A DNA stretch of 32,000 nt. It comes from Paracoccus suum (GTDB taxonomy: Bacteria > Pseudomonadota > Alphaproteobacteria > Rhodobacterales > Rhodobacteraceae). Both the position numbers and the translations under genes were made by a program. Where the stretch lies: positions 2,310,001 to 2,342,000 of the forward strand of contig NZ_CP030918.1 of NCBI RefSeq assembly GCF_003324675.1. Reading direction: 5' to 3'. The notes under the pieces were generated by a model, which was given only the letters and a program-made list of their open reading frames with translations, was not told the DNA's origin and did not search any database. Below, in pieces: positions 6,943 to 30,112 of the stretch (positions within the stretch are counted from its first letter, which is position 1; every line of letters begins with the position of its first letter).

Positions 6943-6946
6943 GCCG

Positions 6947-7633: not shown

Positions 7634-7636
7634 CCC

Positions 7637-8332: not shown

Positions 8333-8383
8333 GCTGCCTGCTGGGCTGAGGCGGGCCGGCGCGAGGCCAGCCCGGTCGGGCGC

Positions 8384-9175
8384 TTACTTGTGGTCCTTGG
8401 CCCAGTCGGTGGTTTTCCACCAGTAGTTGATCTTGGCTTCCAGCCGGTTGTCGGCCGTGATCAGCTCGACATAGTTGTCCAGCCAGAGCTTGAGGTGAAA
8501 GGCGTTCGGCTGGACCGCAAAGGCCAGCGGCTCGCGGGTGATGACACCCTCGAGGATCTTGAGGTTGCCGAATTCGTCCACGAAGCTGGTGACGTTGCCG
8601 AGGTCCGAGACCATCCCGTCAAGACGGCCCGACGACAGCGCCTGCGCGGTCGCGGCGGTGCCGCCCGCGAACTCTTTAAGCGTGGCCTCGGGCATGTATT
8701 TCTTGATCGCCTCGCCATACGAGCTGGCCTGCGTCGCGCCGAGGGTCAGCCCGGACTTGTTCAGGTCCTGCCATTTCGTCGCCGGCGAATCCTTCGGCGC
8801 GACGGCAACCGTCTCCTGGTAGAACATCGGGCGCGAGAACAGCAGCTGCGCCGCGCGCTGCGGGGTCGGGGTCATGTCGGCGGCGATCATGTCCACCTTG
8901 CCCGACAGCAGTGCCGGGATGAGGCCCTTCCAGTCGTAGTCCTGGACCACCAGCTTGACGCCCAGATCGTCGGCCATCATCTGCGCCAGCTCGACCGCAA
9001 GGCCGGTCCGGGCGCCGTTCTTGTCGACGAAGCTGACGGGCGGGCCCTGGGTCTGGACCGCGATCCGCAACTCGCCCCGGCCGAGGATATCGTCCATCTC
9101 GTCGGCCTGCGCGGCGCTGACCGTGGTCATGCAGGCCGCGGCAAGCGCCATTACGCTCTTAAGAAATCGTCTCAT
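8384..9175 (-). CDS. Periplasmic substrate-binding protein, family 3 (polar amino acid type)
   Basis: Signal peptide 'MRRFLKSVMALAAACMTTVSAAQA'. 'LRIAVQTQGPPVSFVDKNG', 'GKVDMIAADMTPTPQR' and the length of about 260 aa are typical of this family. Confidence 0.9.
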   Translation of the reverse strand: MRRFLKSVMALAAACMTTVSAAQADEMDDILGRGELRIAVQTQGPPVSFVDKNGARTGLAVELAQMMADDLGVKLVVQDYDWKGLIPALLSGKVDMIAADMTPTPQRAAQLLFSRPMFYQETVAVAPKDSPATKWQDLNKSGLTLGATQASSYGEAIKKYMPEATLKEFAGGTAATAQALSSGRLDGMVSDLGNVTSFVDEFGNLKILEGVITREPLAFAVQPNAFHLKLWLDNYVELITADNRLEAKINYWWKTTDWAKDHK

Positions 9176-9220
9176 CTGGTTCGCCCCCTTGTTGTGATCG
9201 CGTCGTCGTCGCCGGCGGCG

Positions 9221-9972
<752 letters not shown>

Positions 9973-9976
<4 letters not shown>

Positions 9977-10827
9977 GCGGCAATTCCGTGGTCGGTGGAA
10001 AATCGGCCCGAAAAGGCGATTGCGACGGGTCCGGTGAGGGTCAGGCTGTCATCCTCGTGGACCTCGACGGTGAGGTTGCCGCCCGGCATCTCGACCACCA
10101 CGCGGCGGGCGGTGATCAGCCCGCGACGGCGTGCAGCCAGCACCGCGGCGCAGGCGCCGCTGCCGCAGGCTTGAGTCAGGATGCCCGGCCGTTCCCAGAC
10201 CACGGCGCGCAGGCGGTCATCAGTCACGACTTGCGCAATGCCGATGTTGGCGCCTTCCGGCAGGGCGGGGTTGGCGGCGAGGGCAGGGGCCCAGCGCCGC
10301 ACGTCCACCGCGTCCCGGTCGGGGACGAAGCAGACCAGATGCGGGTTACCGAGGTTCAGTGCCACCGGGTGGGACAGCGGGCCGGATTCCATGTCCAGCC
10401 CGCCGGTGTCCGCCGGCTGCGACAGGGGGATGGCTGCCCAGTCCCAGCGCGGCGCACCGAGGCGCAGCGCCACATCCCCGCCCGCAGCGCGGCGGGCCGC
10501 GATCAGTCCCCCCAGCGTCTCCAGCCGGACCTTGTCGAAGCCTTCCTCAAGCAACAGCCAGCAGACGCAGCGAGTGGCATTCAGGCAGGTCTCGGCCTCG
10601 GTCCCGTCGACATTATAGATTCGCATTCTGGCATCGGCGGTAGGCGCGCTCGGCGGCTCGATTACCAGCAACTGGTCGCCACCCACACCGCGATGCCGAT
10701 CGCAAATCGCCCGGATCGTGTCGGGGTCGGGACGAAACGCATGGCTGCGCCCGTCGACGATGACAAAATCGTTTCCGAGGCCGTGCATTTTGAGGAAGTC
10801 GCGGCAAGGTGCCGAATTTTCAGGCAA
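9973..10827 (-). CDS. dapF: Diaminopimelate epimerase
   Basis: '[15 protein letters not shown]', the first catalytic Cys context 'NATRC', 'LGNPHLV', and the second catalytic Cys context '[12 protein letters not shown]'. Its stop overlaps the ATG of the ABC ATPase (9973-9976). The start is uncertain: either TTG at 10827 (GAGAG 6 nt upstream) or ATG at 10788. Confidence 0.88.
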
Positions 10828-11036: not shown

Positions 11037-11219
11037 GTCGATTTGGCTTCCGGCGAGGCATTGCCGGTGACCGGCAGAGACATTGATCGCACGAAATTTT
11101 TTCCGATTATCGAAATTCAGTTCCGCATGTTGGAATTATGGACGCTTCCCACGAGCGAAAAAATCTGTCGATTTCTGTACGAGCATCGCCCTTTTTTCTT
11201 GCACGACAGCAGAATCGAC
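11037..11219. promoter_or_regulatory. Divergent control region with a repeated GTCGATT(T) motif (candidate operator half-sites) in an AT-enriched core
   Basis: GTCGATTT lies at 11037-11044 and GTCGATTTCTG at 11167-11177. The inverted copy CAGAATCGAC is at 11210-11219, so the two arms flank a T6 tract. CGAAATT occurs twice (about 11091 and 11111). The region lies between dapF (-) and the TRAP operon (+). Confidence 0.3.
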
Positions 11220-11309
11220 GCAGTATCCCCGCGTCGGGGGACAAAATCATAACCACCATGTGGACGCCGGTGCGGCGAGTTGGCCGCAGTCCCGAGGGGG
11301 AGGACAGTG

Positions 11310-13187
11310 ATGCACCACGCGGATGCGCATGCCGAGGCCGAACTGGCTCTCGGCGGGATCGAATCCCTGGCCGAGCCGAAGCGGGCAGAGGCCTGGATGC
11401 GCCCGGTCGAGATTGCGGCCTCTGCTTTGCTGCTGGTGATGATCGTCACCGTGCTGGCCAACGTGTTCTTTCGCTATGTGCTGACCAAGCCGTTGATCTG
11501 GGGCGACGAGGTCGCCTCGATCAGCTTCATCTGGATGGCCATGCTGGGGGCGGCGCTCGCCGTAGACCGGCATGAGCATATGCGGCTGACCGTCTTCCTG
11601 CCGATGTTGCCGGAGAGGCTGGCCCGCGTGGTCGAGGTCGCCGGCAGTGTGCTGGTCTGCGTCCTGCTGCTGCGCTTGCTGCCCGTCGCCGTCGAATACG
11701 CCTACGAGGAATCGTTCGTCACCTCGCCCGCACTGCAATTGCCGATGTCGTGGCGGGCGTCTGCCCTGCCGGCGGGGATCGGGTTGATGGTGGTGCTGAT
11801 GGTGCTGTCGGTCCTGCGGACTCGCGAATGGTCCACCATTATCGGCACGTTGCTGGTCACCGGAGCAGTCGTCGCCGCCCTGTGGGTCGCCAAGCCCGCG
11901 ATCCTGTCGCTGGGCAACTGGAACCTGCCGCTGTTCCTAGGCCTCTTCGCGGGCGCGTTGCTGATCATGGGCGTGCCCATCGCCTTCTGCTTTGCCCTGG
12001 CGACACTCGGCTACCTGACCTTTGCGACCCACGCCCCGGCCTTCGTCATGATGGGCCGCATCGACGAGGGCATGTCCTCGCTGATCCTGCTGTCGGTGCC
12101 GGTGTTTGTGCTGCTGGGCTGCATCCTTGACGCGACCGGCATGGGCCGCGCCATCGTCGGTTTCCTCGCCTCGCTGTTCGGCCATGTGAAGGCCGGGATG
12201 AGCTATGTGCTGCTCGGCTCGATGTTCCTCGTCTCCGGCATTTCCGGCTCGAAAGTGTCGGACATGGCAACTGTCGCGCCGGCCCTGTTCCCCGAGATGC
12301 GGCGCCGTGGCCATTCCGCGCCCGAGATGACCGCGCTGCTGGCGACCGGCGCGGCCATGGCCGACACGGTGCCACCCTCGATCGTGCTGATCGTACTGGG
12401 ATCGGTTGCGGGCGTGTCCATCGCCGGCCTCTTCACCTCGGGCTTTGCCATCGCCATGGTGCTTCTGGTCGTTCTGGCTGTGCTGGCCCGTTGGAAAGCG
12501 CGCGGCGAGCGGATGGAGGGGGTGCAGCGCGCCTCGCTCGGCGTGATCGGCAAGACCGCCCTGATCGCGGCGCCCGCCTTGGTGCTGCCCTTCATGATCC
12601 GCAGTCTGGTCGCCGGCGGCGTTGCCACCGCGACCGAGGTCAGCACCATCGCGACCCTTTATGCCTTCATCATCGGCTCGGTGCTCTACGGCGGCATCCC
12701 GCTGCGCCGCGTCGGCACGATGCTGGTCGAGACCGCCGCCATGTCGGGGGCGATCCTGCTGATTCTCGGCGCCGCGTCGGCCATGGCCTGGGGGCTGACT
12801 CAATCGGGCTTTGCGCGCGATCTGATGGTGCTGGTGACCGGCCTGCCGGGCGGCTGGCTCGTCTTCATGCTCGCCTCGATCGTGATCTTCCTGTTGCTTG
12901 GCTGCGTGCTGGAGGGGTTGCCCGCCATCGTGCTGCTGGCGCCGATCATGTTCCCGATCTCGCGCGGGCTGGGCATTCACGACATCCATTATGCGATGGT
13001 GATCGTCACGGCGATGAACATCGGTCTGATGGCACCACCAATCGGCATTGGCTTTTACATCGCCTGCAAGATCGCCAACGTGCCCGCCGAACAGGTGATG
13101 GCGAAGATCTGGCCTTATCTCGCCGCACTGCTGGTCGGCCTTCTGGTCATCGCCGCCGTGCCCTGGTTCTCGACCGCGCTTTTGTAA
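11310..13187 (+). CDS. TRAP transporter, fused small (DctQ-like) and large (DctM-like) permease
   Basis: The N-terminal ~160 aa carry 4 hydrophobic helices ('IAASALLLVMIVTVLANVFFRYVLTKPLIWGDEV', DctQ-like). A linker helix 'WSTIIGTLLVTGAVVAALWV' follows. A DctM-like body then begins at 'LPLFLGLFAGALLIMGVPIAFCFALATLGYL'. GGAGGA (11298-11303) precedes the ATG at 11310. Confidence 0.9.
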   Translation: MHHADAHAEAELALGGIESLAEPKRAEAWMRPVEIAASALLLVMIVTVLANVFFRYVLTKPLIWGDEVASISFIWMAMLGAALAVDRHEHMRLTVFLPMLPERLARVVEVAGSVLVCVLLLRLLPVAVEYAYEESFVTSPALQLPMSWRASALPAGIGLMVVLMVLSVLRTREWSTIIGTLLVTGAVVAALWVAKPAILSLGNWNLPLFLGLFAGALLIMGVPIAFCFALATLGYLTFATHAPAFVMMGRIDEGMSSLILLSVPVFVLLGCILDATGMGRAIVGFLASLFGHVKAGMSYVLLGSMFLVSGISGSKVSDMATVAPALFPEMRRRGHSAPEMTALLATGAAMADTVPPSIVLIVLGSVAGVSIAGLFTSGFAIAMVLLVVLAVLARWKARGERMEGVQRASLGVIGKTALIAAPALVLPFMIRSLVAGGVATATEVSTIATLYAFIIGSVLYGGIPLRRVGTMLVETAAMSGAILLILGAASAMAWGLTQSGFARDLMVLVTGLPGGWLVFMLASIVIFLLLGCVLEGLPAIVLLAPIMFPISRGLGIHDIHYAMVIVTAMNIGLMAPPIGIGFYIACKIANVPAEQVMAKIWPYLAALLVGLLVIAAVPWFSTALL

Positions 13188-13220
13188 TCAATCGAATACC
13201 TCAGGGAGGAGGAGGAAATC

Positions 13221-14237
13221 ATGACTATCACCCGCCGCAACATCCTGCTGGGCGCCGCCGTCGGCGCGCTCGCAACGCCATTCATCCGGGTCCGCCCGGC
13301 CATGGCGGCCGAGTTCAGCTACAAGGTCGCCAACAACCAGCCGCTGGACCATCCCAGCAACATCCGCCTGGCCGAGGCGCAAAAGGCGATCCTGGAGGGG
13401 ACCGACGGCCGCTTTGACCTGCAGATCTTCCCGTCGAACCAGCTGGGCGCCGATACCGACGTTCTGGGCCAACTGCGCTCGGGCGGGGTCGAGTTCTTCC
13501 AGCTCTCGCCGGTGATCCTGTCGACGCTGGTGCCCAACGCCTCGATCAACGGCGTGGGCTTTGCCTTCCCGGACTACGACACGGTCTGGAAGGCGATGGA
13601 TGGCGATCTGGGCGCCTATGCGCGCGGTCAGATCGAGGCTGGTGGCCTCGTCGTCATGGACAAGATCTGGGACAACGGCTTCCGCCAGATTACCTCGTCG
13701 AAAAAGCCGATCACGACGCCGGCCGATCTGGAGGGGTTCAAGATCCGTGTGCCGGTCAGCCCGCTGTGGACCTCGCTTTTCACTGCCTTCGGCTCGGCCC
13801 CGGCATCGATCAACTTCGCCGAGGTTTATACCGCTCTGCAGACCGGGATCGTCGACGGGCAGGAAAACCCGCTGGCGATCATGAAGGTCGCGAAGCTGTG
13901 GGAGGTGCAGAAATATTGCTCGCTGACCAACCACATGTGGGACGGCTTCTGGATGCTCGGCAACCGCCGCGCCTGGCAGGCCCTACCCGAAGACGTGCAG
14001 AAGGTCGTCGCCGACAACTTCAACGCCGCGGCGGTCAAGCAGCGGGCCGACATCGCCGAGATGAACAAGACCCTCAAGACCGACCTCGAGGGCAACGGCT
14101 TTGTCTTCAACGACGTCGATCCCAAGGCGTTCGAGGACAAGCTGCGCGAGGCCGGGTTCTACGCGGAATGGAAGAAAACCTTTGGCGACGAGGCCTGGGC
14201 CATTCTGGAAACGGCCATTGGACGCAAGCTGGCCTGA
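13221..14237 (+). CDS. TRAP transporter substrate-binding protein (DctP family)
   Basis: Tat/Sec-like leader 'MTITRRNILLGAAVGALATPFIRVRPAMA'. DctP-type motifs 'NQLGADTDVLGQLRSGGVEF', 'DNGFRQITS', 'PADLEGFKIRVP' and 'YTALQTGIVDGQENPL' are present. A strong SD GGAGGAGGAGGA lies upstream. Confidence 0.9.
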   Translation: MTITRRNILLGAAVGALATPFIRVRPAMAAEFSYKVANNQPLDHPSNIRLAEAQKAILEGTDGRFDLQIFPSNQLGADTDVLGQLRSGGVEFFQLSPVILSTLVPNASINGVGFAFPDYDTVWKAMDGDLGAYARGQIEAGGLVVMDKIWDNGFRQITSSKKPITTPADLEGFKIRVPVSPLWTSLFTAFGSAPASINFAEVYTALQTGIVDGQENPLAIMKVAKLWEVQKYCSLTNHMWDGFWMLGNRRAWQALPEDVQKVVADNFNAAAVKQRADIAEMNKTLKTDLEGNGFVFNDVDPKAFEDKLREAGFYAEWKKTFGDEAWAILETAIGRKLA

Positions 14238-15037
14238 TGCGCGACGCCGTCGCCCCTGCCCATGCGGACACTGGAGGAACGCAGGCGGTGGCGCGTGCGC
14301 TGTCGCTGCTGTCGCTGGTCGGGCGGGGCGGGGCGCAAGGACTGGGGCTGGCGCAGCTTGCGGCAGCCTCGGGTCTTGCGCGGCCCACGGCGCGGCGGCT
14401 GCTGCTGGCGCTGGGCGCGGCGCGCATGGTCGAGCAGGACCGCGCGACGCGCCGCTATCATCTGGGCGCCGAGACCTATCTGCTGGCCGGTTTCGCGGCA
14501 GAGCGCCACGGCATCCTGCACCATGCCCGCGAGGGCATGGTCAGGCTGGCGCAAGAGACGGGCGATACGGTGCTGCTGACCGTGCCGCAGGATGACCACA
14601 CCCTGTGCCTGGAACGGATCGAGGGCGATTTTCCGGTCCGCACCCATGCCCTGATGCGTGGCGACCGCAAACCTGCAGGCCTCGGGGCCGGTGCCTTGGC
14701 GATCCTCGCCGCCCTGCCAGCGGCGGAGGCGGAGGCGCTGCTGACCCGGGCGGCGCCGCAGATCGGCGATCTGATGCCGGCTGTGGTCGCGGATTTGGAG
14801 CAGGCCCGCGCCGACGGTTACGCCCTCAATCCCGGACATGTCATTGCCGGGTCCTGGGGCCTCGGGGTGGTCATTTCCTGGCCGGACGGGCGCCCGGCGG
14901 GGGCGCTGTCCATCGCCGCCATCGAAAACCGCATGACGCCAGCGCGCCAGGTCGATCTGGTCGCCGGCCTGCATCGCGAGGCCGCAGTTATCGCGGCGCG
15001 CCTTTCCGCGCTGGGCACCGAAAGGAACATCCCTTGA
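14237..15037 (+). CDS. IclR-family transcriptional regulator
   Basis: 'AVARALSLLSLVGRGGAQGLGLAQLAAASGLARPTARRLLLALGAARMVEQD' is a winged HTH, followed by an IclR effector domain ('GDTVLLTV..LCLERIEG', 'GAGALAIL'). The ATG at 14237 shares one nucleotide with the dctP TGA (14235-14237). The listed 423-aa ORF is an upstream extension across dctP. Confidence 0.85.
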   Translation: MRDAVAPAHADTGGTQAVARALSLLSLVGRGGAQGLGLAQLAAASGLARPTARRLLLALGAARMVEQDRATRRYHLGAETYLLAGFAAERHGILHHAREGMVRLAQETGDTVLLTVPQDDHTLCLERIEGDFPVRTHALMRGDRKPAGLGAGALAILAALPAAEAEALLTRAAPQIGDLMPAVVADLEQARADGYALNPGHVIAGSWGLGVVISWPDGRPAGALSIAAIENRMTPARQVDLVAGLHREAAVIAARLSALGTERNIP

Positions 15038-16203
15038 CCGAACCCCTGATCGTCGGCTGGGCGCATACGAAGTTCGGCAAGGCCGAGGCGCCCGATACGA
15101 TGGCCCTGATGGCCGAGGTCGCGCTGCCGGCGCTGGACCACGCCGGGGTGCCGCCCGAGGCGGTCGATGGCATCTTTACCGGCGTCTACAACAACGGCTT
15201 TCAGCGCCAGGATTTTCAGGGCGCGCTCGTCGCCATGGGCGCGCCGGAACTGGCGGGCATGCCCTTCATGCGCACCGAAAACGCCTGTGCCACCGGCTCG
15301 GCGGCCCTCTATGCGGCAGCGGATTTCATCGCCTCGGGCCGCGGCAGGATCGCCCTGGTGATCGGCGCGGAAAAGATGACCGCGCTGCCCATTACCGATG
15401 TCGGGGGCGTGTTGCTGACCGCCAGCTATGTCGCCGAGGAAGGGGACACGCCCGGCGGGTTTGCCGGCGTCTTCGGCCGCATCACGGACGCCTATTTCCA
15501 GCGGAACGGCGACAGGTCCGAGGAACTGGCGATGATTGCCGCCAAAAACCACGGCAACGGCGTCAACAACCCTTATGCGCATATGCAAAAGGCGCTGGAT
15601 GTGGCGTTCTGCAACACACCGTCCGACAAGAACCCGCTGGTGGCCGGTCCGCTGCGGCGCACGGATTGCTCGTTGGTCTCGGACGGCGCAGCGGCCATCG
15701 TGCTGGCGGCGTCCGAGGTGGCTGAAGGTCTGGCCCGAGCGATCCGTTTTCGCGCCCGCGCGCAGGCCGGGGACATTCTGGCTCTGTCGCGCCGGGACCC
15801 GACCGAATTTGCCGGCGCGCACCGCGCATGGCGATCGGCGCTGGACCAGGCGGGGCTGGCGATCACCGACCTGTCGCTGGTGGAAACCCATGACTGCTTC
15901 ACCACCGCCGAGATGATCGAATACGAGGCGATGGGGCTCGCTCCGCGCGGGCAGGGTTGGCGCGTGATCCGAGAGGGGACGACCCGCATGGGCGGCGCGC
16001 TGCCGGTGAACCCCTCGGGCGGGCTGAAATCGCGCGGCCACCCGATCGGCGCGACAGGTGTCTCGCAGCACGTCATGGCTGCGATGCAGTTGATGGACGA
16101 GGCTGGGGCCATGCAGGTTCGCGGCGCGAACTTGGCCGGAGTCTTCAACATGGGCGGCACGGCCGTTGCCAATTACTGCTCGATCCTGGAGCGCGCGCGA
16201 TGA
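15034..16203 (+). CDS. SCP2/SCPx-type thiolase-like protein
   Basis: Nucleophile context 'TENACATGSAALY', the SCP2-thiolase fingerprint 'ETHDCF', and 'GHPIGATGV'. No Cys is present in the C-terminal 'FNMGGTAVAN'. The proposed start is TTG at 15034, overlapping the iclR TGA (15035-15037), with AAAGGA 8 nt upstream. The first in-frame ATG would remove the conserved N-terminus. Confidence 0.82.
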   Translation: MTEPLIVGWAHTKFGKAEAPDTMALMAEVALPALDHAGVPPEAVDGIFTGVYNNGFQRQDFQGALVAMGAPELAGMPFMRTENACATGSAALYAAADFIASGRGRIALVIGAEKMTALPITDVGGVLLTASYVAEEGDTPGGFAGVFGRITDAYFQRNGDRSEELAMIAAKNHGNGVNNPYAHMQKALDVAFCNTPSDKNPLVAGPLRRTDCSLVSDGAAAIVLAASEVAEGLARAIRFRARAQAGDILALSRRDPTEFAGAHRAWRSALDQAGLAITDLSLVETHDCFTTAEMIEYEAMGLAPRGQGWRVIREGTTRMGGALPVNPSGGLKSRGHPIGATGVSQHVMAAMQLMDEAGAMQVRGANLAGVFNMGGTAVANYCSILERAR

Positions 16204-17777
16204 CGGACCCCTCAGGCGGCGTTGCCCCTGTCTCGACCCGCGTGATGAATCTTGCGACCTTCCTCGCGCAGGCTGCCCGGCGCGACCCGGACGGGATTGC
16301 CCTTGTGATGGGCGATACGCGCTGGACCTGGGCCGAGTGGAACGCCCGCGCCGATGCGCTGGCCGATGCACTGCAGACGCGGTTCAACCTGCAAAAGGGC
16401 GACCGGGTGCTGTGCCAGTCGCAGAACTGCATGGAGATGATGCAGGCCATGTTCGCCGTCTGGCGCGCCGGCGGGGTCTGGGTGCCCGCCAACTTCCGCC
16501 AGACACCGGAGGAGGTGGCCTATCTCGCCGAGGCCTCGGGCGCGTCGCTGATGTTCTGTAACGCCGCCTTTCCGGCCCATGCGGCGGCCTGCGATCTGCC
16601 GCAGATCGCCATCGGGGCTGCCGATTTCGGCCCCGACATTGCCGCCATCACTGCCGAGCATATGGGCAAGCGACCGCCGGCCGCAGCGGTTGGCCGCGAC
16701 GATCCCTGCTGGTTCTTCTTCACTTCGGGCACCACCGGGCGCCCCAAGGCGAGCGTTCTGACCCATGGCCAGATGGCCTTTGTGGTGACCAATCACCTTG
16801 CCGACCTGATGCCGGGGCTGACCGGCGATGATGCCTCACTGGTGGTCGCGCCACTGTCGCACGGCGCGGGGGTGCATCAGCTGACGCAGGTGGCGCGCGG
16901 GGTAAAGACGATCCTGCTGCCGACCGAGCGCTTTGACGTGGCGCAGGTCTGGGATCTGGTCGCGCAGTGGCGGGTGTCGACCATGTTCACCGTGCCGACG
17001 ATCCTGAAACTGCTGGTGGAACATCCATCGAGCGCGGCGGCCGACACCTCGTCCCTGCGCTATGTCGTCTATGCCGGCGCGCCGATGTACCGCGTGGACC
17101 AGCAAAGGGCGCTGGAGACGCTCGGCCCCGTGCTGGTCCAGTATTTCGGGCTGGGCGAGGTCACGGGCAACATCACCGTCCTGCCCGCGCATCTGCATCA
17201 GGCCGAGGACGGGCCCACCGCCCGCATCGGCACCTGCGGCCATGCGCGGACCGGGATCGAGGTCCAGATCCAGGATGACAATGGCGACGAGGTCGCGCCG
17301 GGCGAGACAGGAGAGATCTGCTGCATCGGCCCGGCCGTCTTTGCCGGCTACTACCAGAACCCCGAGGCCAATGCGAAATCCTTTCGGAACGGCTGGTTCC
17401 GCACGGGCGATCTTGGCCACATGGACGAGCAGGGCTTTTTCTACATCACCGGTCGGCAGTCGGACATGTTCATCTCGGGCGGCTCGAACGTCTATCCACG
17501 CGAGATCGAGGAAAAAATCCTGACCCACCCGGCGATCAACGAGGTCGCGGTCGTCGGCGTGCCGGACCCCCTGTGGGGAGAGATAGGCTGGGCGGTTTGC
17601 GTCGCGAACGCCCCCGTGGCCGAGGATGACCTGGCGGCGTTCCTCGACGGCAAGCTGTCGCGCTACAAGATGCCCAAGCGGTTCCTGTTCTGGGATGCGC
17701 TGCCCAAGTCAGCCTATGGCAAGATCACCAAGAAGATGATCCGCGAAGAGCTGGAAGCCCGCGGCATGCTCGCATGA
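16200..17777 (+). CDS. AMP-forming acyl-CoA synthetase/ligase (ANL superfamily)
   Basis: 'FFFTSGTTGRPKAS' (AMP-binding core), 'GEICCIGP', 'FRTGDLGHMDEQGFFYITGRQSDMFISGGSNVYPREIE', and the C-terminal lysine context 'PKSAYGKITKK'. An ATGA start/stop overlap with the thiolase lies at 16200-16203. Confidence 0.9.
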   Translation: MTDPSGGVAPVSTRVMNLATFLAQAARRDPDGIALVMGDTRWTWAEWNARADALADALQTRFNLQKGDRVLCQSQNCMEMMQAMFAVWRAGGVWVPANFRQTPEEVAYLAEASGASLMFCNAAFPAHAAACDLPQIAIGAADFGPDIAAITAEHMGKRPPAAAVGRDDPCWFFFTSGTTGRPKASVLTHGQMAFVVTNHLADLMPGLTGDDASLVVAPLSHGAGVHQLTQVARGVKTILLPTERFDVAQVWDLVAQWRVSTMFTVPTILKLLVEHPSSAAADTSSLRYVVYAGAPMYRVDQQRALETLGPVLVQYFGLGEVTGNITVLPAHLHQAEDGPTARIGTCGHARTGIEVQIQDDNGDEVAPGETGEICCIGPAVFAGYYQNPEANAKSFRNGWFRTGDLGHMDEQGFFYITGRQSDMFISGGSNVYPREIEEKILTHPAINEVAVVGVPDPLWGEIGWAVCVANAPVAEDDLAAFLDGKLSRYKMPKRFLFWDALPKSAYGKITKKMIREELEARGMLA

Positions 17778-18601
17778 GCCTGCGAATGATCCATCCCGGC
17801 CCGCGCGCGGCCGAGCGCACGGTGGCCGTGCCGGCCGACCTGCGCCGCATTGCGGGGGTTTTGCCGGCCGGGCGCAGCGTGATGGAGGCAGTCGGCGATC
17901 TGTTTGCGGCGAAGGGTTGCAAGGGCGGCGTGGTGTGGCTGGACGGGGCGGTCTGCGATCCGCTGCGCTTTGTGCTGCCGGCGCCATCGACGGATGGCCT
18001 GCACGCGGCATGGTATTCGGACACCCATGCCCCGGACGGCCCCGTCCAGATCGGGCGGGCCACCGCAACCGTCGGCTGGAAGGATGGCGCGCCGTTCCTG
18101 CACTGCCATGGCACATGGGCGGGTACCATGGGCCACCTTTTGCCCTTCGACAGCATTCTGGCCGCCGATGCGCCTGTCGCCGGCATCGGCGCGCCTGATG
18201 CGTGGTTCGAGTCGCTGCCCGACGTGGAAACCGCCTTTACGCTATTCACGCCGCAAGGGAGCGGTATCGGCACTGGCCTGCTGGCTCGCATCCTTCCTGG
18301 CGAGGACGTTCTCACTGCCATCGAGACCCTCTGCGCTGGACACGGCATCACCGATGCGCGGCTGTACGGGGTCGGCAGCATTGATCACATCCGCTTTGTC
18401 GACGGCAGCCGCACGGACTGCCACGCCACGGAACTGCATCTGGTTGGTGCCACCCTCAGGGCGGGCGAGGCGCATGTGCCGATCGAGGTCGTGGACATCG
18501 ACGGCAAGATCATGCGCGGCGTGCTGGAGCGCGGGGTTAACCCGGTCGGCGTGACGCTGGAATTGATAGTCGAGACAGAAGGGGTGCGCGATGACGCATG
18601 A
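17774..18601 (+). CDS. Tandem PPC (DUF296)-domain protein, function unknown
   Basis: There are two PPC-like halves. Half 1 is 'VLPAGRSVMEAVGDLFAAKGCKGGVVWLDGAV...GWKDGAPFLHCHGTW'. Half 2 is 'RILPGEDVLTAIETLCAGHGITDARLYGVGSIDHIRF...LRAGEAHVPIEVVDIDGKIMRGVLERG'. An ATGA overlap with the ligase lies at 17774-17777. Confidence 0.65.
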   Translation: MSLRMIHPGPRAAERTVAVPADLRRIAGVLPAGRSVMEAVGDLFAAKGCKGGVVWLDGAVCDPLRFVLPAPSTDGLHAAWYSDTHAPDGPVQIGRATATVGWKDGAPFLHCHGTWAGTMGHLLPFDSILAADAPVAGIGAPDAWFESLPDVETAFTLFTPQGSGIGTGLLARILPGEDVLTAIETLCAGHGITDARLYGVGSIDHIRFVDGSRTDCHATELHLVGATLRAGEAHVPIEVVDIDGKIMRGVLERGVNPVGVTLELIVETEGVRDDA

Positions 18602-19373
18602 CGCCAAGGTTGCCGTCGTAACCGGGGGATGCCGCGGCATCGGCCTCGCCGCGACACAGATTTTCCTCGAGCAGGGCTGGCGGGTCGCAGTCGTGGACCG
18701 CGACACGGACGAACTACATGCCGTGTGTGACCCGATGGAGAATGTCCTGCCGATCGAGGCAGACATTTCCGAGCCACAAAGCGTCGATGGCCTGATCCGA
18801 ACGGTCGTCAGTCAGTTCGGCGGCGTCGATGCACTGGTCAACAACGCGGGCGTCGCGCTGTTCTCGCGCGCGGACCAGACCAGCTTCGAGGCCTGGCGCG
18901 AGGTCATGGCGACCAACCTCGACGGCGTGTTCCTGTGTACCCAGGCGGCGGTGCCGGAGCTGGCGAAAACACGCGGCGCGATCGTAAATATCGCCTCGAT
19001 CTCGGGCCTGCGCGCCTCGACGCTGCGGGTCGCCTATGGCACCTCGAAGGCCGCCGTCATTCATCTGACCAAGCAATTCGCAGCCGAACTGGGCGAGCAA
19101 GGTATTCGCGTCAACTGCGTCGCCCCCGGCCCGGTCAGGACCAAACTGGCCATGGCGGTGCATGCGCCGGAAATCATCAGCGCCTATTACGACGCCATCC
19201 CGCTGAACCGCTATGGCGAGGCACGCGAGATCGCCGAGGCGATCGTGTTCCTATGCTCGGACAAGGCCAGCTTCGTCACCGGGCAGACGCTGGCCGTCGA
19301 CGGCGGCTTTGACGCAACCGGCGTCGGCCTGCCGGCCCTGCGGCGAGGGGACGGGACGGTGCGCGAGATCTGA
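18591..19373 (+). CDS. Classical SDR-family oxidoreductase
   Basis: 'VAVVTGGCRGIGLA' (TGxxxGxG), 'NNAGV', 'SISG...VAYGTSKAAV' (S/YxxxK) and 'VNCVAPGPVRT'. The start overlaps the upstream stop by 11 nt. Confidence 0.9.
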   Translation: MTHDAKVAVVTGGCRGIGLAATQIFLEQGWRVAVVDRDTDELHAVCDPMENVLPIEADISEPQSVDGLIRTVVSQFGGVDALVNNAGVALFSRADQTSFEAWREVMATNLDGVFLCTQAAVPELAKTRGAIVNIASISGLRASTLRVAYGTSKAAVIHLTKQFAAELGEQGIRVNCVAPGPVRTKLAMAVHAPEIISAYYDAIPLNRYGEAREIAEAIVFLCSDKASFVTGQTLAVDGGFDATGVGLPALRRGDGTVREI

Positions 19374-19417: not shown

Positions 19418-19879
19418 TCAGATGTTCAGCGTCAGTCCTGTCTTGACGGTATCCATCGATACGAAGGTGCCGAACTTGCGCACGTTGCTGCCTTGGAACA
19501 GAACGAGGCGCGTGAAATCCTCGTAATGCGCCATGCTCTCGACCACCACGACCAGCATGAAATCGGCCTCGCCGGTGACGTAAAAGCACTGCTGCACCTC
19601 GGGTGCGTCGCGGAAGCGACATTTCATCATGTCGATGTCCTCGGGCGTCTCGCTGACCAGTTCTACCTGGCAGAAGATGGTCAGTGGCCGGCCGACCTTG
19701 CCGGGGTCAAGGACTGCGACGGTGGCCGCGATCACGCCCTCGGCCTCCATCCGGCGGATTCTGCGCTGCACCGAGGGCGCGGACAGGTTCACCGCCTCGC
19801 CGATCTCGCGCTGCGGCATCCTCGCGTCGCGTTGCAGGATCCGCAGGATGGCGATGTCGAATGCGTCGAGGGGCGTCAT
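19418..19879 (-). CDS. Lrp/AsnC-family transcriptional regulator
   Basis: 'LDAFDIAILRILQRDARMPQREIGEAVNLSAPSVQRRIRRMEAEGVI' is an HTH_AsnC domain, followed by a C-terminal RAM/ASNC ligand domain. Length is 153 aa. Confidence 0.9.
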   Translation of the reverse strand: MTPLDAFDIAILRILQRDARMPQREIGEAVNLSAPSVQRRIRRMEAEGVIAATVAVLDPGKVGRPLTIFCQVELVSETPEDIDMMKCRFRDAPEVQQCFYVTGEADFMLVVVVESMAHYEDFTRLVLFQGSNVRKFGTFVSMDTVKTGLTLNI

Positions 19880-19978
19880 GGCGTGTGCGGTCTCGTGAAA
19901 CAGACTTGCATGAAGAGCCTCAATTTACAGCGCAACTCTCACGGTGAGTGCAATAGCCTCTCGCAAAAGGGAGTCGTG

Positions 19979-21178
19979 ATGTATCTGATCAATACCTTAC
20001 CGGTATTCGGCCAGCCGCTCGATCCGCGCGATGCCGAGACGCTGGGGCAGACCGGGGCCGACAAGGTTTCGCGCATTTTGGCCCTGCGCGAGAACAACGC
20101 CCCCACGCCGCTGGTCGCGCTGCCGGGCCTCGCGCGAAAGCTGGGGCTCGCCTCGGTGCATCTGAAGGACGAAGGCCAGCGGCTCGGCCTCGGCAGCTTC
20201 AAGGCGCTGGGCGGGGCCTATGCGGTGATGCGGGTCGTGCAGGACGAGGCAAGTCGGCGCCTTGGCCGGGCGATCGAGCCAGAGGGACTGATGGCGCCGG
20301 ACGTGCGCGCGGTGGCTGCGTCCATCACCTTTGCCTGCGCGACTGACGGCAACCATGGCCGCTCGGTCGCTCAAGGGGCGCAGCTGCTCGGTGCGCGCTC
20401 GGTCATCTTTGTCCATGCCGGGGTCAGCCAGGCGCGGATCGATGCCATCGCGCGCCTGGGCGCCGAGGTCATCCGGGTCGACGGCCATTACGACGATTCC
20501 ATCGCGGAGGCGACGCGCGTTGCCTCCGCCAACGGCTGGACCATCCTGTCGGACACGTCCTGGCCCGGCTACGAGGAAATTCCCGGACTCGTCATGCAGG
20601 GCTACACGGCCATCGCCCGCGAGGCGCTGGCGGAGCTGCCCGCGCCGCCGACCCATGTCTTCCTGCAGGCCGGCGTCGGCGGTTTTGCCGCTGCGATCGC
20701 CGGGCACCTGGCTCTCGTCTTGGGCGAGCGACGCCCGCATGTCACGGTTGTCGACCCCGCCCGGGCCGCGAGTCTGTTCGCAAGCGCCCAGGCGGGGCGC
20801 GTCGTGCAGGTCCCGGCGGGTGAGCCGACGGTGATGGCCATGCTCGAGTGCTACGAGCCGTCGCTGGTCGCCTTCCGGGTACTGGAAAGACTGGCCAACG
20901 GATTCATGACTCTGGAGGAGGAGGACGCGATCGCCGTCGTCCGCCGGCTCGCGGAGCCCGAGCCCGGGGACCCGCCCGTTGTCGCCGGCGAGAGTGGCGG
21001 CGTGGGTCTGGCCGGCGCCATGGCCGTGCTGCGCGATGGCGAGCTTGCGCCTCGGATCGGCCTCGGGCCGCAGGCGCGGCTGCTGGTCATCAATACCGAA
21101 GGGGCGACCGATCCGGCGCTGTTCACGCGGATTGTCGGGCGCACACCGGAAACTGTGCTGACCCGCGAAAATGCCTGA
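19979..21178 (+). CDS. dpaL: 2,3-diaminopropionate ammonia-lyase (PLP-dependent, YgeX/DpaL type)
   Basis: 'PTPLVALPGLARKLGLASVHLKDEGQRLGLGSFKALGGAYAV', 'ATDGNHGRSVA', 'SWPGYEEIPGLVMQGYTAIA', 'LQAGVGGFAAA', 'AGESGGVGLAG' and 'INTEGATDP' parallel E. coli YgeX along its whole length (aligned by eye). AAAGGGAG precedes the ATG at 19979. The listed longer ORF runs antisense to lrp. Confidence 0.88.
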   Translation: MYLINTLPVFGQPLDPRDAETLGQTGADKVSRILALRENNAPTPLVALPGLARKLGLASVHLKDEGQRLGLGSFKALGGAYAVMRVVQDEASRRLGRAIEPEGLMAPDVRAVAASITFACATDGNHGRSVAQGAQLLGARSVIFVHAGVSQARIDAIARLGAEVIRVDGHYDDSIAEATRVASANGWTILSDTSWPGYEEIPGLVMQGYTAIAREALAELPAPPTHVFLQAGVGGFAAAIAGHLALVLGERRPHVTVVDPARAASLFASAQAGRVVQVPAGEPTVMAMLECYEPSLVAFRVLERLANGFMTLEEEDAIAVVRRLAEPEPGDPPVVAGESGGVGLAGAMAVLRDGELAPRIGLGPQARLLVINTEGATDPALFTRIVGRTPETVLTRENA

Positions 21179-21245
21179 TACGATATCAATGGACCAATCG
21201 CGCCCGGCCGGTCCGGACGGGCGTCATTCGGGAGGGGAGAGAAGA

Positions 21246-22064
21246 ATGAAATTGCTCGGCAGCCTGATCGTTGCTTCCGCCTTGCTGCTCGCGCCCTTGG
21301 CGCAGGCCGGCGAGACGCTGGATCGCGTCACCAAAAGCGGCAAGATGATGGTCGCGACCAACGCCGCGTGGCCTCCGCAAAGCTATCTCGACGATTCCAA
21401 CCAACTCGTCGGATATGACATCGACGTCGCGAACGAGATCGGAAAGCGTCTTGGCGCGAAAGTCACTTTCGACACGCCCGACTGGGGGTTGATGACCGGC
21501 GGCCGCTGGGGCGGCCGCTGGGACGCGGCGGTCGGATCGATCACGCCGACCAAGCCGCGGGCGCAGGTCCTCGATTTCGCGGGGGTCTATTACTATAGCC
21601 CGTATATCTTTGCCGTGCATGCCGACAGCGCCATCACCGACCAGAAGGACCTGAACGGCAAGAAGATCGGCGTCGAGACCGGCACCACCTCCGAGGACTA
21701 CATCAATCGGCGGCTGGAGATTGATGCGCCGGGCGTCGCGCCGATCCAGTACTGGCTGGAGCCGGGCGAGGTGAAGACCTATGCCAGCTCGCTGCTGCCA
21801 TTCGACGACCTGCGCCTCGGCGATGGCAAGCGCCTCGACGCGGTGATTGCGCCCGAGCAGACGGTGATGGGCGCCATCAAAAGCGGCTATCCGATCAAGG
21901 CACTGGAGGGTGACTATGCCTTCCGCGAGCCCCTAGTTGTGGTGGCCGACAAGGGCGATCCCGAGTGGACCGCGCGCCTTGGCGAGATCATCGAGCAGAT
22001 GCGTGCTGATGGCACTCTCGCGACCTTGACGACCAAATGGTACGGCAAGGATTACTCGAAGTAA
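21246..22064 (+). CDS. Periplasmic substrate-binding protein, family 3
   Basis: Signal peptide 'MKLLGSLIVASALLLAPLAQAGE'. 'GKMMVATNAAWPPQSYLD', 'GYDIDVANEIGKRLG' and 'WDAAVGSITPTKPR' are family-typical. GGGAGGGGAGAG precedes the ATG at 21246. Confidence 0.85.
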   Translation: MKLLGSLIVASALLLAPLAQAGETLDRVTKSGKMMVATNAAWPPQSYLDDSNQLVGYDIDVANEIGKRLGAKVTFDTPDWGLMTGGRWGGRWDAAVGSITPTKPRAQVLDFAGVYYYSPYIFAVHADSAITDQKDLNGKKIGVETGTTSEDYINRRLEIDAPGVAPIQYWLEPGEVKTYASSLLPFDDLRLGDGKRLDAVIAPEQTVMGAIKSGYPIKALEGDYAFREPLVVVADKGDPEWTARLGEIIEQMRADGTLATLTTKWYGKDYSK

Positions 22065-22072
22065 TGACATCC

Positions 22073-22098
22073 CGCGGCGCGACAAGGCTCGCGCCGCG
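22073..22098 (+). other. Perfect 10-bp GC hairpin inside the operon, directly after the binding-protein gene
   Basis: CGCGGCGCGA (22073-22082), loop caaggc, then TCGCGCCGCG (22089-22098), followed by 'ccttgcttc'. The next ATG is at 22117. Confidence 0.5.
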
Positions 22099-22116
22099 CC
22101 TTGCTTCGGGCGCGAC

Positions 22117-23421: not shown

Positions 23422-23444
23422 TCGGGCGAGCGGGAAGGGAATCG

Positions 23445-30110: not shown

Positions 30111-30112
30111 TA

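What the first reader, a model, noticed from the sequence alone, without database searches (positions are those of the whole stretch)
11310..19373. Seven-gene translationally coupled operon (fused TRAP permease, DctP, IclR, SCP2-type thiolase, acyl-CoA ligase, tandem-PPC protein, SDR): candidate undescribed organic-acid catabolic route
The junctions are directly visible in the sequence:
- dctP TGA and iclR ATG share one nucleotide (14235-14239).
- The iclR TGA (15035-15037) overlaps the TTG at 15034.
- ATGA overlaps occur at 16200-16203 and at 17774-17777.
- An 11-nt overlap occurs at 18591-18601.

The enzyme set is CoA ligase, SDR and thiolase. That is a truncated beta-oxidation logic, with no acyl-CoA dehydrogenase or enoyl-CoA hydratase. 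It suggests a carboxylate that already carries a hydroxyl or keto group is imported by the TRAP system, CoA-activated, oxidised and thiolytically cleaved. A protein of unknown function (tandem PPC/DUF296) sits in the middle of the enzyme block. I do not recognise this combination as a named pathway.
Basis: partly seen in the sequence, partly recalled or inferred. Interest (0 to 1): 0.72.

Follow-up and report, generated by a model that had tools for sequence, protein, structure and literature searches.

The report
TRAP-linked CoA catabolic operon with PPC enzyme
This is a real seven-gene operon, conserved in many Alphaproteobacteria, that most likely imports a small hydroxy/keto acid and breaks it down as a CoA ester; it also gives the first clear metabolic context for a bacterial protein family (PPC/DUF296) of unknown function.

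Summary
Seven + strand genes at 11310-19373 are joined by 1-11 nt overlaps, plus one 33-nt gap with a strong ribosome-binding site. The window is from Paracoccus suum.

The module is strongly co-conserved. In 70 of 74 usable genome loci from different species, the TRAP genes, thiolase, ligase, PPC and SDR lie together while the flanks differ. No acyl-CoA dehydrogenase, hydratase or other family co-occurs. I found no paper describing it.

New findings:
- DctP matches PDB 4OAN at E 1.8e-140. From memory, 4OAN was solved with co-purified (S)-2-acetolactate.
- The PPC protein folds confidently into two PPC domains, with near-invariant H110/H112/H121 plus E220/E263.
- Its next structural neighbours after single-domain PPC proteins are acetolactate decarboxylases, but weakly.
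- Two conserved TCCA-N5-TGGA palindromes upstream are candidate IclR operators.

Best reading: an IclR-controlled route for a small acetolactate-like hydroxy/oxo acid, with the PPC protein acting as a metalloenzyme. The substrate and the PPC chemistry remain unproven.

The parts
11122..11134 (.). O1: palindrome TCCGCATGTTGGA, candidate IclR operator about 190 nt upstream of the first gene
   Evidence: TCC[AG]-N5-[CT]GGA occurs, usually twice and 105-130 bp apart, upstream of the DctQM gene in nearly all related loci. Background is 0.11 per 400 nt. Binding by IclR is inferred.
11198..11204 (+). CTTGCAC, a conserved -35-like element between the two palindromes
   Evidence: TTGC(A/C) is conserved in the alignment of upstream regions from 14 loci. 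The consensus sigma-70 scan found no promoter, so this is tentative.
11252..11264 (.). O2: degenerate palindrome ACCACCATGTGGA, about 50 nt upstream of the start codon
   Evidence: It aligns with TCCAC-N3-TGGA sites at -55 to -65 in orthologous loci. In the window the first base is A instead of T.
11310..13187 (+). Fused TRAP membrane component DctQ-DctM (625 aa)
   Evidence: Pfam DctQ at residues 44-171 and DctM at 216-620. 52% identical to the fused QM of R. palustris HaA2. GGGGGAGG ribosome-binding site at 11296-11303.
13221..14237 (+). TRAP solute-binding protein DctP with a twin-arginine signal (TRRNIL...AMA/AEF)
   Evidence: Pfam DctP 230 bits; TIGR00787 226 bits against a cut-off of 175. 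E 1.8e-140 to PDB 4OAN over 311 residues. The signal peptide is read from the sequence.
14237..15037 (+). IclR-family regulator
   Evidence: HTH_IclR plus IclR_C. The best named relative is BhcR at 94 bits, far below its cut-off of 350. Present in 69 of 74 loci.
15034..16203 (+). SCP2-type (type-1) thiolase, TTG start
   Evidence: NCBIfam PRK07516 629 bits against a cut-off of 412. The closest solved structures include SCP2-thiolases and BbsB. Cys85, H286-D-C-F and G335-H-P are present.
16200..17777 (+). ANL-family acyl-CoA synthetase
   Evidence: NCBIfam equivalog PRK07470 923 bits against a cut-off of 774. Motifs TSGTTGRPK, TGDLG and the GKITKK lysine are present. The closest solved structures are only about 280 bits: feruloyl-CoA synthetase and FadD13.
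17774..18601 (+). Tandem PPC/DUF296 protein, predicted His3-metal enzyme (alternative start 17786)
   Evidence: Pfam PCC in two stretches. AF2 model pLDDT 94.6 with two alpha/beta domains. H110/H112/H121, E220 and E263 are at least 95% conserved in 131 distant relatives.
18591..19373 (+). Classical SDR oxidoreductase (orthogroup 'SDR-A')
   Evidence: adh_short/adh_short_C2. TGGCRGIG, NNAG and S136...Y149GTSK are present. The best named model is BudC at 248 bits, below its cut-off of 270.

Best explanation
This is an IclR-controlled, probably single-transcript catabolic module of Alphaproteobacteria.

Proposed steps:
1. The TRAP system (DctP plus fused DctQM) imports a small oxygenated monocarboxylate. 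It is probably 2-substituted, C4-C6, and of the 2-acetolactate type, meaning a 3-oxo or 3-hydroxy acid that may also carry a 2-hydroxy-2-methyl group.
2. The PRK07470-type ligase makes the CoA thioester.
3. The SDR oxidises a beta-hydroxyl to give a 3-oxoacyl-CoA.
4. The SCP2-type thiolase cleaves it to acetyl-CoA plus a short 2-substituted acyl-CoA of the lactoyl- or propionyl-CoA kind.

The tandem PPC protein is not a DNA binder. It is a metal enzyme (His110/His112/His121 plus Glu220/Glu263) of the AF0104/acetolactate-decarboxylase superfamily. I place it at the alpha-hydroxy-beta-oxo intermediate, where enediolate chemistry is expected. It could be an epimerase or ketol isomerase that makes the branched intermediate cleavable, or a hydrolase that disposes of the 2-hydroxyacyl-CoA product.

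IclR represses through two TCCA-N5-TGGA operators until the substrate or a CoA ester binds.

Shown: gene content, order and packing; conservation; the operator motif; the fold and conserved residues; the binding-protein homology.
Inferred: the substrate, the order of steps, the PPC chemistry, and the regulation.
For: - Junctions and ORFs are as described.
- The thiolase has its full catalytic set, and the ligase and SDR motifs are intact.
- In 74 genome loci from different species, QM, DctP, ligase and SDR are each present in 73, thiolase in 72 and IclR in 69. All six non-regulatory genes are present in 70. No other family is co-conserved in the flanks.
- The same operon sits on the P. denitrificans plasmid with different flanks.
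- The enzyme block IclR-thiolase-ligase-PPC plus the same SDR also occurs with an unrelated, unfused TRAP system. The enzymes are therefore a functional unit.
- DctP matches 4OAN at E 1.8e-140, and 4OAN is 100% identical to the R. palustris HaA2 protein. From memory, 4OAN was solved with co-purified (S)-2-acetolactate. A review confirms that 2-acetolactate was found as a TRAP ligand in that study.
- The PPC model has pLDDT 94.6. Its N-domain FLHCHG..MGH motif aligns with the HxH..GH motif of single-domain PPC proteins, including 'metal-containing protein AF0104'.
- Acetolactate decarboxylases are the next Foldseek family, at probability 0.44-0.87, while other hits in that E-value range have probability at or below 0.14.
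- Three His and two Glu are at least 95% conserved across relatives 26-48% identical to the window protein.
- PPC persists in variants that lack the thiolase, so it is not merely a thiolase accessory.
Against: - The ligand of 4OAN is recalled from memory and could not be checked here. It was co-purified from E. coli, so it may only mimic the true ligand.
- The crystallised protein's own locus, and a Bradyrhizobium one, hold only TRAP plus a non-orthologous ligase (31% identity). There is no thiolase, PPC or SDR.
- The similarity to acetolactate decarboxylase is weak: TM about 0.25, rmsd 8-9 A, and no Pfam hit even at E 10.
- The His triad is in the N-terminal domain. From memory, the decarboxylase triad is in the C-terminal domain.
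- The SDR is generic.
- Some lineages lack the thiolase or use two other SDR orthogroups, so the step order may differ.
- Acetolactate is chemically unstable and is not a known growth substrate.
- There are no expression, genetic or biochemical data.
Confidence: 0.55

Rival explanations
1. Ketone-body-type scavenging. The substrate is plain (R/S)-3-hydroxybutyrate, acetoacetate or their 2-methyl analogues. Ligase, SDR and thiolase do ordinary chemistry, and the PPC protein is a dispensable accessory, for example a protective or epimerising helper.
For: - Acetolactate is chemically a 2-hydroxy-2-methyl-acetoacetate, so a binding protein for acetoacetate-like acids could pick it up in E. coli (inference).
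- In R. palustris HaA2 and Bradyrhizobium, the homologous TRAP system is followed only by a ligase. That would suffice for acetoacetate.
- In three Cupriavidus-like loci, the 4P8B-type binding protein lies beside ScoAB and a bona fide 3-hydroxybutyrate dehydrogenase.
- Some variants lack the thiolase, which suggests a housekeeping thiolase can finish the job.
Against: - The ScoAB/BdhA neighbourhood is absent from 35 other 4P8B-like loci.
- The window SDR is well below the 3-hydroxybutyrate dehydrogenase cut-off, 175 against 258 bits.
- PPC is present in all 74 loci by construction, and its active-site-like residues are under strong conservation.
- An SCP2-type thiolase and, in other lineages, two dedicated SDRs are more than this simple route needs.
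Confidence: 0.2
2. The PPC protein is non-catalytic. It is either a DNA-binding or co-regulatory protein, as older annotations say ('DNA-binding protein with PD1-like motif'), or a scaffold for the thiolase or ligase, analogous to DUF35 partners of SCP2-type thiolases.
For: - Database names given by sources.
- Bacterial and archaeal SCP2-like thiolases often need a small partner protein (from memory), and none of the DUF35 kind is in the cluster.
- The PPC gene is translationally coupled to the ligase.
Against: - There is no AT-hook (RGRP) in the sequence. The DNA-binding label derives from plant AHL proteins.
- A dedicated IclR regulator with its own operators is already present.
- PPC is retained where the thiolase is absent.
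- The conserved residues are three His and two Glu, with Thr and Ser. That pattern looks like an active site, and it aligns with the metal motif of AF0104-type proteins.
Confidence: 0.1
3. The substrate is a larger aromatic, alicyclic or lipid-like acid, such as a hydroxycinnamate or a hydroxycyclohexanecarboxylate. The SCP2-type thiolase then acts as in side-chain or ring degradation.
For: - The closest solved ligases are a feruloyl-CoA synthetase and FadD13.
- SCP2-type thiolases act in steroid, benzylsuccinate and ibuprofen routes (for BbsB; the rest from memory).
- SDR variants give weak hits to cis-4-hydroxycyclohexanecarboxylate dehydrogenase.
Against: - The ligase hits are only about 280 bits and are generic.
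- DctP is highly similar to a protein solved, from memory, with a five-carbon ligand.
- No hydratase, dehydrogenase, oxygenase or ring-cleavage genes are co-conserved.
- The SDR hits are far below the cut-offs.
Confidence: 0.07
4. The module works in the synthetic direction. The thiolase condenses acyl-CoAs and the SDR reduces the product, to make a hydroxy-acid-derived metabolite from an imported precursor.
For: Thiolases and SDRs are reversible (established knowledge). The SDR resembles FabG/BudC-type reductases.
Against: - An uptake system plus an IclR repressor inside the operon is the usual layout of a catabolic unit.
- No exporter, tailoring or polymerising genes are co-conserved.
- The flanks are unrelated in different genera.
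Confidence: 0.03

Closest known systems
TRAP solute-binding protein RPB_2686 of Rhodopseudomonas palustris HaA2 (PDB 4OAN)
   Same: E 1.8e-140 and aligned over 311 residues with the window DctP. It is also paired with a fused DctQM (52% identical) and followed by an acyl-CoA ligase. From memory, it was crystallised with co-purified (S)-2-acetolactate.
   Different: Its locus has no thiolase, PPC, SDR or IclR. Its ligase belongs to another clade (PRK08162; 31% identity). The physiological ligand was never established, to my knowledge.
Alpha-acetolactate decarboxylase (ALDC; BudA/AlsD; e.g. PDB 4BT2/4BT3)
   Same: It is a two-domain protein and the best non-PPC fold match. From memory, it uses a His3-bound zinc plus two glutamates on an alpha-hydroxy-beta-keto acid, and it sits in the same SCOP superfamily as AF0104-type PPC proteins. 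The PPC protein conserves three His and two Glu.
   Different: There is no sequence-level match to the family and the TM-score is only about 0.25. The His triad lies in the N-terminal domain. No conserved Arg or Lys could hold a free carboxylate. Its genomic partners are CoA-ester enzymes, not acetolactate synthase and butanediol dehydrogenase.
Single-domain bacterial and archaeal PPC/DUF296 proteins (PDB 2H6L AF0104, 2DT4, 3HWU, 2P6Y)
   Same: Each half of the protein is a PPC domain. The N-terminal half keeps the HxH...GH motif of these proteins.
   Different: The two domains are fused, and the C-terminal one has lost the His motif. The solved proteins have no assigned function, and I saw no conserved metabolic gene context reported for them.
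CoA-dependent 'truncated beta-oxidation' of 3-hydroxy acids, e.g. the acyl-CoA route for 2-deoxy-D-ribonate in Klebsiella michiganensis (Price et al. 2019, from memory)
   Same: The logic is activation to a CoA ester, oxidation of the 3-hydroxyl, then thiolysis, with no acyl-CoA dehydrogenase or hydratase.
   Different: The enzymes are different and unrelated, the transporter differs, and there is no PPC protein. Here the substrate is unknown.
SCP2-type thiolase systems with DUF35 partners (BbsAB benzoylsuccinyl-CoA thiolase; archaeal thiolase/HMG-CoA synthase complex)
   Same: The thiolase belongs to the same subfamily: BbsB 138 bits and archaeal thiolase 145 bits against the PDB.
   Different: No DUF35/OB-fold partner is encoded in or near the cluster. 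The thiolase keeps the full catalytic set.
Ketone-body utilisation (BdhA, ScoAB or acetoacetyl-CoA synthetase, PhaA)
   Same: It ends in thiolysis of a short 3-oxoacyl-CoA. Acetolactate is a substituted acetoacetate.
   Different: The window SDR does not reach the 3-hydroxybutyrate dehydrogenase cut-offs. The ligase is not the acetoacetyl-CoA synthetase type. An extra conserved PPC enzyme is present.

Membership tests
TRAP transporter (DctP-type) | Periplasmic family-7 solute-binding protein with an export signal | tested here: met
   PF03480 230 bits; TIGR00787 226 bits against a cut-off of 175. Twin-arginine signal TRRNIL...AMA/AEF.
TRAP transporter (DctP-type) | DctQ and DctM membrane components | tested here: met
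   PF04290 at residues 44-171 and PF06808 at 216-620 in one 625-aa protein.
TRAP transporter (DctP-type) | Binding of a carboxylate ligand through the conserved arginine | not tested
   No ligand-contact analysis was possible. The AF2 model of DctP failed (pLDDT 48.5).
IclR-family regulator | N-terminal HTH_IclR plus C-terminal effector domain | tested here: met
   PF09339 and PF01614.
IclR-family regulator | Binds a palindromic operator at its own operon | tested here: inconclusive
   Two conserved TCCA-N5-TGGA palindromes upstream. Binding was not tested.
SCP2-type (type-1) thiolase | Thiolase N and C domains with nucleophilic Cys, HDCF motif and GHP histidine | tested here: met
   (PRK07516, 629 bits against 412). 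Cys85, H286DCF and G335HP. SCP2-thiolase structures are among the top hits.
Thiolase-DUF35 complexes (BbsAB-like) | Adjacent DUF35/OB-fold partner gene | tested here: not met
   None among the seven genes or the co-conserved flanks.
ANL acyl-CoA synthetase | AMP-binding core motifs and C-terminal catalytic lysine | tested here: met
   PF00501 plus PF13193. TSGTTGRPK, TGDLG, GKITKK. NF005676 923 bits against 774.
Classical SDR | TGxxxGxG, NNAG and the Ser-Tyr-Lys triad | tested here: met
   TGGCRGIG at 11, NNAG at 84, S136, Y149xxxK153.
meso-2,3-butanediol dehydrogenase BudC (NF052558) | Score at or above the curated equivalog cut-off | tested here: not met
   248 bits against a cut-off of 270. 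It is the best named hit, but below threshold.
3-hydroxybutyrate dehydrogenase (NF009093/TIGR01963) | Score at or above the curated cut-off | tested here: not met
   175 bits against a cut-off of 258.
PPC/DUF296 (PF03479) | PCC domain above the gathering score | tested here: met
   58 bits against 25, in two stretches. Both halves align with solved PPC proteins. The N and C halves align in register by hhalign (E 9e-4, probability only 23%).
PPC/DUF296 (PF03479) | HxH...H metal motif of AF0104-type proteins | tested here: met
   H110-C-H112...H121 in the N-domain aligns with the motif and is at least 95% conserved. Metal binding itself was not tested.
Plant AHL-type PPC DNA-binding proteins | AT-hook (RGRP) next to the PPC domain | tested here: not met
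   No RGRP in the sequence.
Alpha-acetolactate decarboxylase (PF03306) | Sequence membership in the family | tested here: not met
   No hit, even at E up to 10.
Alpha-acetolactate decarboxylase (PF03306) | Same two-domain fold with a His3 metal site | tested here: inconclusive
   Foldseek probability 0.44-0.87 to several ALDC structures, but TM about 0.25. A His triad is present but in the other domain. A superposition could not be run.
Canonical beta-oxidation cluster | Acyl-CoA dehydrogenase and enoyl-CoA hydratase | tested here: not met
   Absent from the operon and not co-conserved in 92 loci.

The most novel reading that the evidence does not exclude
The tandem PPC/DUF296 protein founds a new family of His3-metal enzymes that act on alpha-hydroxy-beta-oxoacyl-CoA thioesters, for example 2-acetolactyl-CoA. 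The operon would then be a previously unknown CoA-dependent pathway for 2-acetolactate or 2,3-dihydroxy-2-methyl-branched acids. That would give the first biochemical function for any bacterial PPC protein and explain the orphan 'acetolactate-binding' TRAP transporters.
Probability: 0.3. Interest if true: 0.8.

Novelty: new variant of a known kind. Interest (0 to 1): 0.6.

Why it matters
PPC/DUF296 is an ancient domain shared by prokaryotes and plants. Several structural-genomics structures exist, but I found no bacterial function for it in the searchable literature.

Here a tandem form sits in a compact, self-contained catabolic operon. The operon is found in a model organism (P. denitrificans PD1222, PDEN_RS23975-24005), and relatives of the PPC protein occur in about 400 species genomes. 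The partner enzymes are predictable, the regulator has a recognisable operator, and the transporter family already has a crystal structure with a ligand.

That makes the question 'what do bacterial PPC proteins do?' directly testable with a handful of knockouts and enzyme assays. If the substrate is acetolactate-like, it would also reveal a CoA-dependent fate for a metabolite that many fermenting microbes leak.

Tried and rejected
- **Literature.** Ten full-text searches found nothing on this cluster or on bacterial PPC function. One of them was badly framed and wasted. The key paper (Vetting et al. 2015) is not held, so the ligands of 4OAN and 4P8B rest on memory plus one review sentence.
- **Extra pathway genes.** I looked for them in the flanks of 92 loci and found none.
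- **Informative fusions of the PPC protein.** I looked among 1.84 billion representatives. All relatives are stand-alone proteins of about 270-310 aa.
- **A second acetolactate-type binding protein.** The variant-D DctP is most similar, among solved structures, to 4P8B. However, 4P8B-like loci in metagenomes carry no ligase, thiolase or PPC. Their link to ScoAB and BdhA is confined to three near-identical Cupriavidus-like contigs. I treat this as a weak hint only.
- **AF2 model of DctP.** It failed (pLDDT 48.5), so I ran no structure search on it.
- **Sequence-level link to acetolactate decarboxylase.** No Pfam hit.
- **NCBIfam naming of the three SDR orthogroups.** All generic.
- **Promoter and terminator scans.** Uninformative apart from finding no internal + strand sites.
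- **Rfam and tRNA scans of the window.** Empty.
- **PPC as a DNA-binding regulator or thiolase scaffold.** Considered and rejected; see the rival explanations.

Full report
**Observation.** The seven + strand reading frames at 11310-13187, 13221-14237, 14237-15037, 15034-16203, 16200-17777, 17774-18601 and 18591-19373 are all open.
- a 33-nt gap with a strong GGGAGGAGGAGG ribosome-binding site before dctP;
- a one-base TGATG overlap;
- TTGA;
- two ATGA overlaps;
- an 11-nt overlap before the SDR.

The only uncertainty is the PPC start. The public protein is 271 aa and orthologues begin at MIHPGP. The ATG at 17786 may therefore be used, which changes a 4-nt overlap into an 8-nt gap. No terminator-like or sigma-70-like site lies on the + strand inside the block. 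The unit is bounded by a divergent minus-strand amino-acid transporter operon ending at 10827 and by a convergent Lrp/AsnC gene at 19418-19879.

**Source and gene identities.** The PPC protein is 100% identical to a Paracoccus suum protein on a 3.25-Mb contig. Pfam and NCBIfam reproduce all seven assignments:
- fused DctQ-DctM;
- DctP;
- IclR;
- a thiolase of subfamily PRK07516 (629 bits against a cut-off of 412);
- an acyl-CoA synthetase of equivalog PRK07470 (923 against 774);
- a protein with two PCC-domain stretches and no NCBIfam family;
- a classical SDR.

The thiolase's closest solved relatives include SCP2-type thiolases and BbsB. It keeps Cys85, the HDCF motif and the GHP histidine, so it should be catalytically competent. 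The ligase and SDR motifs are intact. The SDR's best named model is BudC (meso-2,3-butanediol dehydrogenase) at 248 bits, below its cut-off of 270. It is otherwise generic.

**Conservation.** The same seven genes, in the same order and with 1, 4, 4, 4 and 4 nt overlaps, lie on the 654-kb plasmid of P. denitrificans PD1222 (PDEN_RS23975-24005) between unrelated neighbours. Neomegalonema has the six non-regulatory genes.

A scan of one genome per species found relatives of the PPC protein in 396 genomes. The 80 best are almost all Alphaproteobacteria (Rhodobacterales and Hyphomicrobiales), plus one MAG labelled only 'Proteobacteria bacterium'. In the 74 loci with enough flank, QM, DctP, ligase and SDR are each present in 73, the thiolase in 72 and IclR in 69. 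All six non-regulatory genes are together in 70. Clustering all flanking ORFs of 92 loci found no further co-conserved family, and in particular no acyl-CoA dehydrogenase or hydratase. The module is therefore self-contained.

**Variants.**
- The Paracoccus type has one SDR ('SDR-A').
- Haematobacter, Neorhizobium, Aureimonas and others instead have two other SDR orthogroups, about 40% and 33% identical to SDR-A.
- Chelatococcus, Mesorhizobium and some Microvirga have those two SDRs but no thiolase.
- Alloyangia and P. seriniphilus combine IclR-thiolase-ligase-PPC and SDR-A with an unrelated, unfused TRAP system.

The constant core is therefore ligase plus PPC plus SDR(s) with a TRAP importer. 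The thiolase is usual but not universal.

**Regulation.** Aligning upstream regions revealed a palindrome, TCC[AG]-N5-[CT]GGA. It is usually present twice, 105-130 bp apart, against a background of 0.11 per 400 nt. A conserved TTGCAC-like element lies between the copies. In the window these are 11122-11134 (TCCGCATGTTGGA), 11198-11204, and a degenerate copy at 11252-11264. From memory, the motif resembles the E. coli IclR box. Binding by the operon's IclR is inferred, not shown.

**The transporter and its ligand.** DctP matches PDB 4OAN at E 1.8e-140 over 311 residues. The 4OAN sequence is 100% the R. palustris HaA2 protein. From memory, this entry (RPB_2686, Enzyme Function Initiative) was modelled with co-purified (S)-2-acetolactate. 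The original paper is not held, but a review confirms that 2-acetolactate was one of the new TRAP ligands found in that study.

There is an important caveat. In HaA2 and in a Bradyrhizobium, the homologous TRAP genes are followed only by a non-orthologous acyl-CoA ligase (PRK08162 type, 31% identity), with no thiolase, PPC, SDR or IclR. Both contexts point to CoA activation of the imported acid, but the substrate need not be identical.

The unrelated DctP of the Alloyangia-type variant is most similar, among solved structures, to 4P8B (E 2.3e-67). From memory, 4P8B is the second acetolactate-bound TRAP protein (R. eutropha H16_A1328). That would be a striking coincidence, but 4P8B-like loci in metagenomes carry none of the enzymes. 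Only three near-identical Cupriavidus-like contigs place it beside ScoAB and a true 3-hydroxybutyrate dehydrogenase. I therefore treat it as a hint that these binding proteins recognise acetoacetate-like acids, of which acetolactate is the 2-hydroxy-2-methyl derivative.

**The PPC protein.**
- AlphaFold2 with 43 sequences gives a confident model (pLDDT 94.6) of two alpha/beta domains.
- Foldseek finds single-domain PPC proteins first, including 'metal-containing protein AF0104'. Acetolactate decarboxylases come next, as several structures at probability 0.44-0.87, where unrelated hits of similar E-value have probability at or below 0.14. The TM-score is only about 0.25.
- A profile of the family aligns its N-domain motif FLHCHG-W...MGH with the HxH...GH motif of the solved PPC proteins. 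The C-domain lacks it.
- The two halves align in register.
- A search of 1.84 billion representatives finds 253 clusters at E<1e-30. All are stand-alone proteins of about 270-310 aa.
- Across 131 of them, 26-48% identical to the window protein, the residues at least 95% conserved include H110, H112, H121, T153, S202, E220 and E263. No Arg or Lys is conserved.
- There is no AT-hook.

From memory, acetolactate decarboxylase uses a zinc held by three histidines plus two glutamates, and an arginine for the carboxylate. SCOP groups AF0104, ALDC and the zinc esterase PTD012 in one superfamily. The pattern here fits a metal enzyme whose substrate lacks a free carboxylate, which would be true of a CoA thioester. 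Because PPC persists where the thiolase is missing, it is not a thiolase accessory.

**Mechanism proposed.**
1. TRAP uptake of a small oxygenated, probably 2-substituted acid.
2. CoA activation by the ligase.
3. Oxidation of a beta-hydroxyl by the SDR.
4. Thiolysis by a thiolase type that, from memory, tolerates 2-substituted 3-oxoacyl-CoAs.
5. The PPC metalloenzyme handles the alpha-hydroxy-beta-oxo (enediolate-prone) intermediate or its 2-hydroxyacyl-CoA product.

I put about 0.55 on this general scheme, about 0.4 on an acetolactate-like substrate, and about 0.6 on PPC being a metal enzyme. Its exact reaction (epimerase or ketol isomerase, C-C or thioester hydrolase, or decarboxylase) cannot be decided with these data. 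The main rival is plain ketone-body-type scavenging with PPC as an accessory (0.2). Non-catalytic PPC (0.1), a larger aromatic or alicyclic substrate (0.07) and a biosynthetic direction (0.03) are less likely.

**Comparison with the known.** The module works like other CoA-dependent 'truncated beta-oxidation' routes for hydroxy acids, so it is a known kind of system. It is not a member of the canonical beta-oxidation, ketone-body, butanediol or BbsAB-type systems, because defining features of each were tested and not met (see the membership table). The new element is the conserved tandem PPC enzyme and its link to an orphan TRAP family. No paper in the searchable library mentions the cluster. 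That includes the approximate Pden_481x-482x locus tags, estimated from pden4830.

**Verdict.** It is a new variant of a known kind, of moderate to good interest (0.6). The operon is compact, widespread and present in a genetically tractable model organism, and it offers a direct route to the first function for bacterial PPC/DUF296 proteins.

Noticed in passing
window 5980-10827 (- strand): A divergent operon: a diaminopimelate-epimerase-like protein (9973-10827), an ABC ATPase, a family-3 binding protein, two permeases and a PLP-dependent enzyme. It looks like an amino-acid uptake and racemisation unit, unrelated to the finding.
   Followed up: partly
window 19418-25162: An Lrp/AsnC regulator (19418-19879, -) lies divergent from a PLP enzyme, a family-3 binding protein, a DAO-type FAD oxidoreductase, a permease and an ABC ATPase. 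This is probably a (D-)amino-acid catabolic unit.
   Followed up: partly
window 19493-21178 (+): This ORF is over-extended. The PALP match starts at residue 201, and the 5' part overlaps the Lrp gene on the other strand. The real start is probably near 20090.
   Followed up: no
window 14818-16371 (-) and L011 9952-11592 (-): Long antisense ORFs run across the operon. One such 'family' recurs in 27 loci. With no domain hits, these are most likely artefacts of high GC, not genes.
   Followed up: partly
L092 9906-10866 (- strand), Agrobacterium tumefaciens pAt plasmid: Two small single-domain PPC/DUF296 genes and an Lrp/AsnC regulator sit immediately downstream of the cluster, which already contains the tandem PPC gene.
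   Followed up: no
P0182 (MAG contig also seen as L054): A called 438-aa protein carries both AMP-binding_C and PCC domains. It is either a true ligase-PPC fusion or a frameshift or gene-calling artefact at the overlapping junction.
   Followed up: no
L009 8064-8843, Skermanella mucosa plasmid: An orphan tandem PPC gene with none of the partner enzymes. It lies next to parAB-like genes and a GNAT/glycosyltransferase cluster.
   Followed up: no
L101 5020-15210 (Cupriavidus-like metagenome contig): The TRAP system whose binding protein is 95% identical to PDB 4P8B lies between ETF-ubiquinone oxidoreductase and an SDR on one side, and 3-oxoacid CoA-transferase ScoAB plus a bona fide 3-hydroxybutyrate dehydrogenase on the other. 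The arrangement is not conserved in more distant relatives.
   Followed up: yes
L001/L006 versus the window: The operon is on the 654-kb plasmid in P. denitrificans but on a 3.25-Mb contig, presumably the chromosome, in P. suum. Many relatives lie on large non-mobilisable plasmids or chromids.
   Followed up: no
window 29000-32000: GC content falls from about 0.68 to 0.59-0.63. Few long ORFs start beyond 29600. No tRNA or Rfam match was found anywhere in the window.
   Followed up: no
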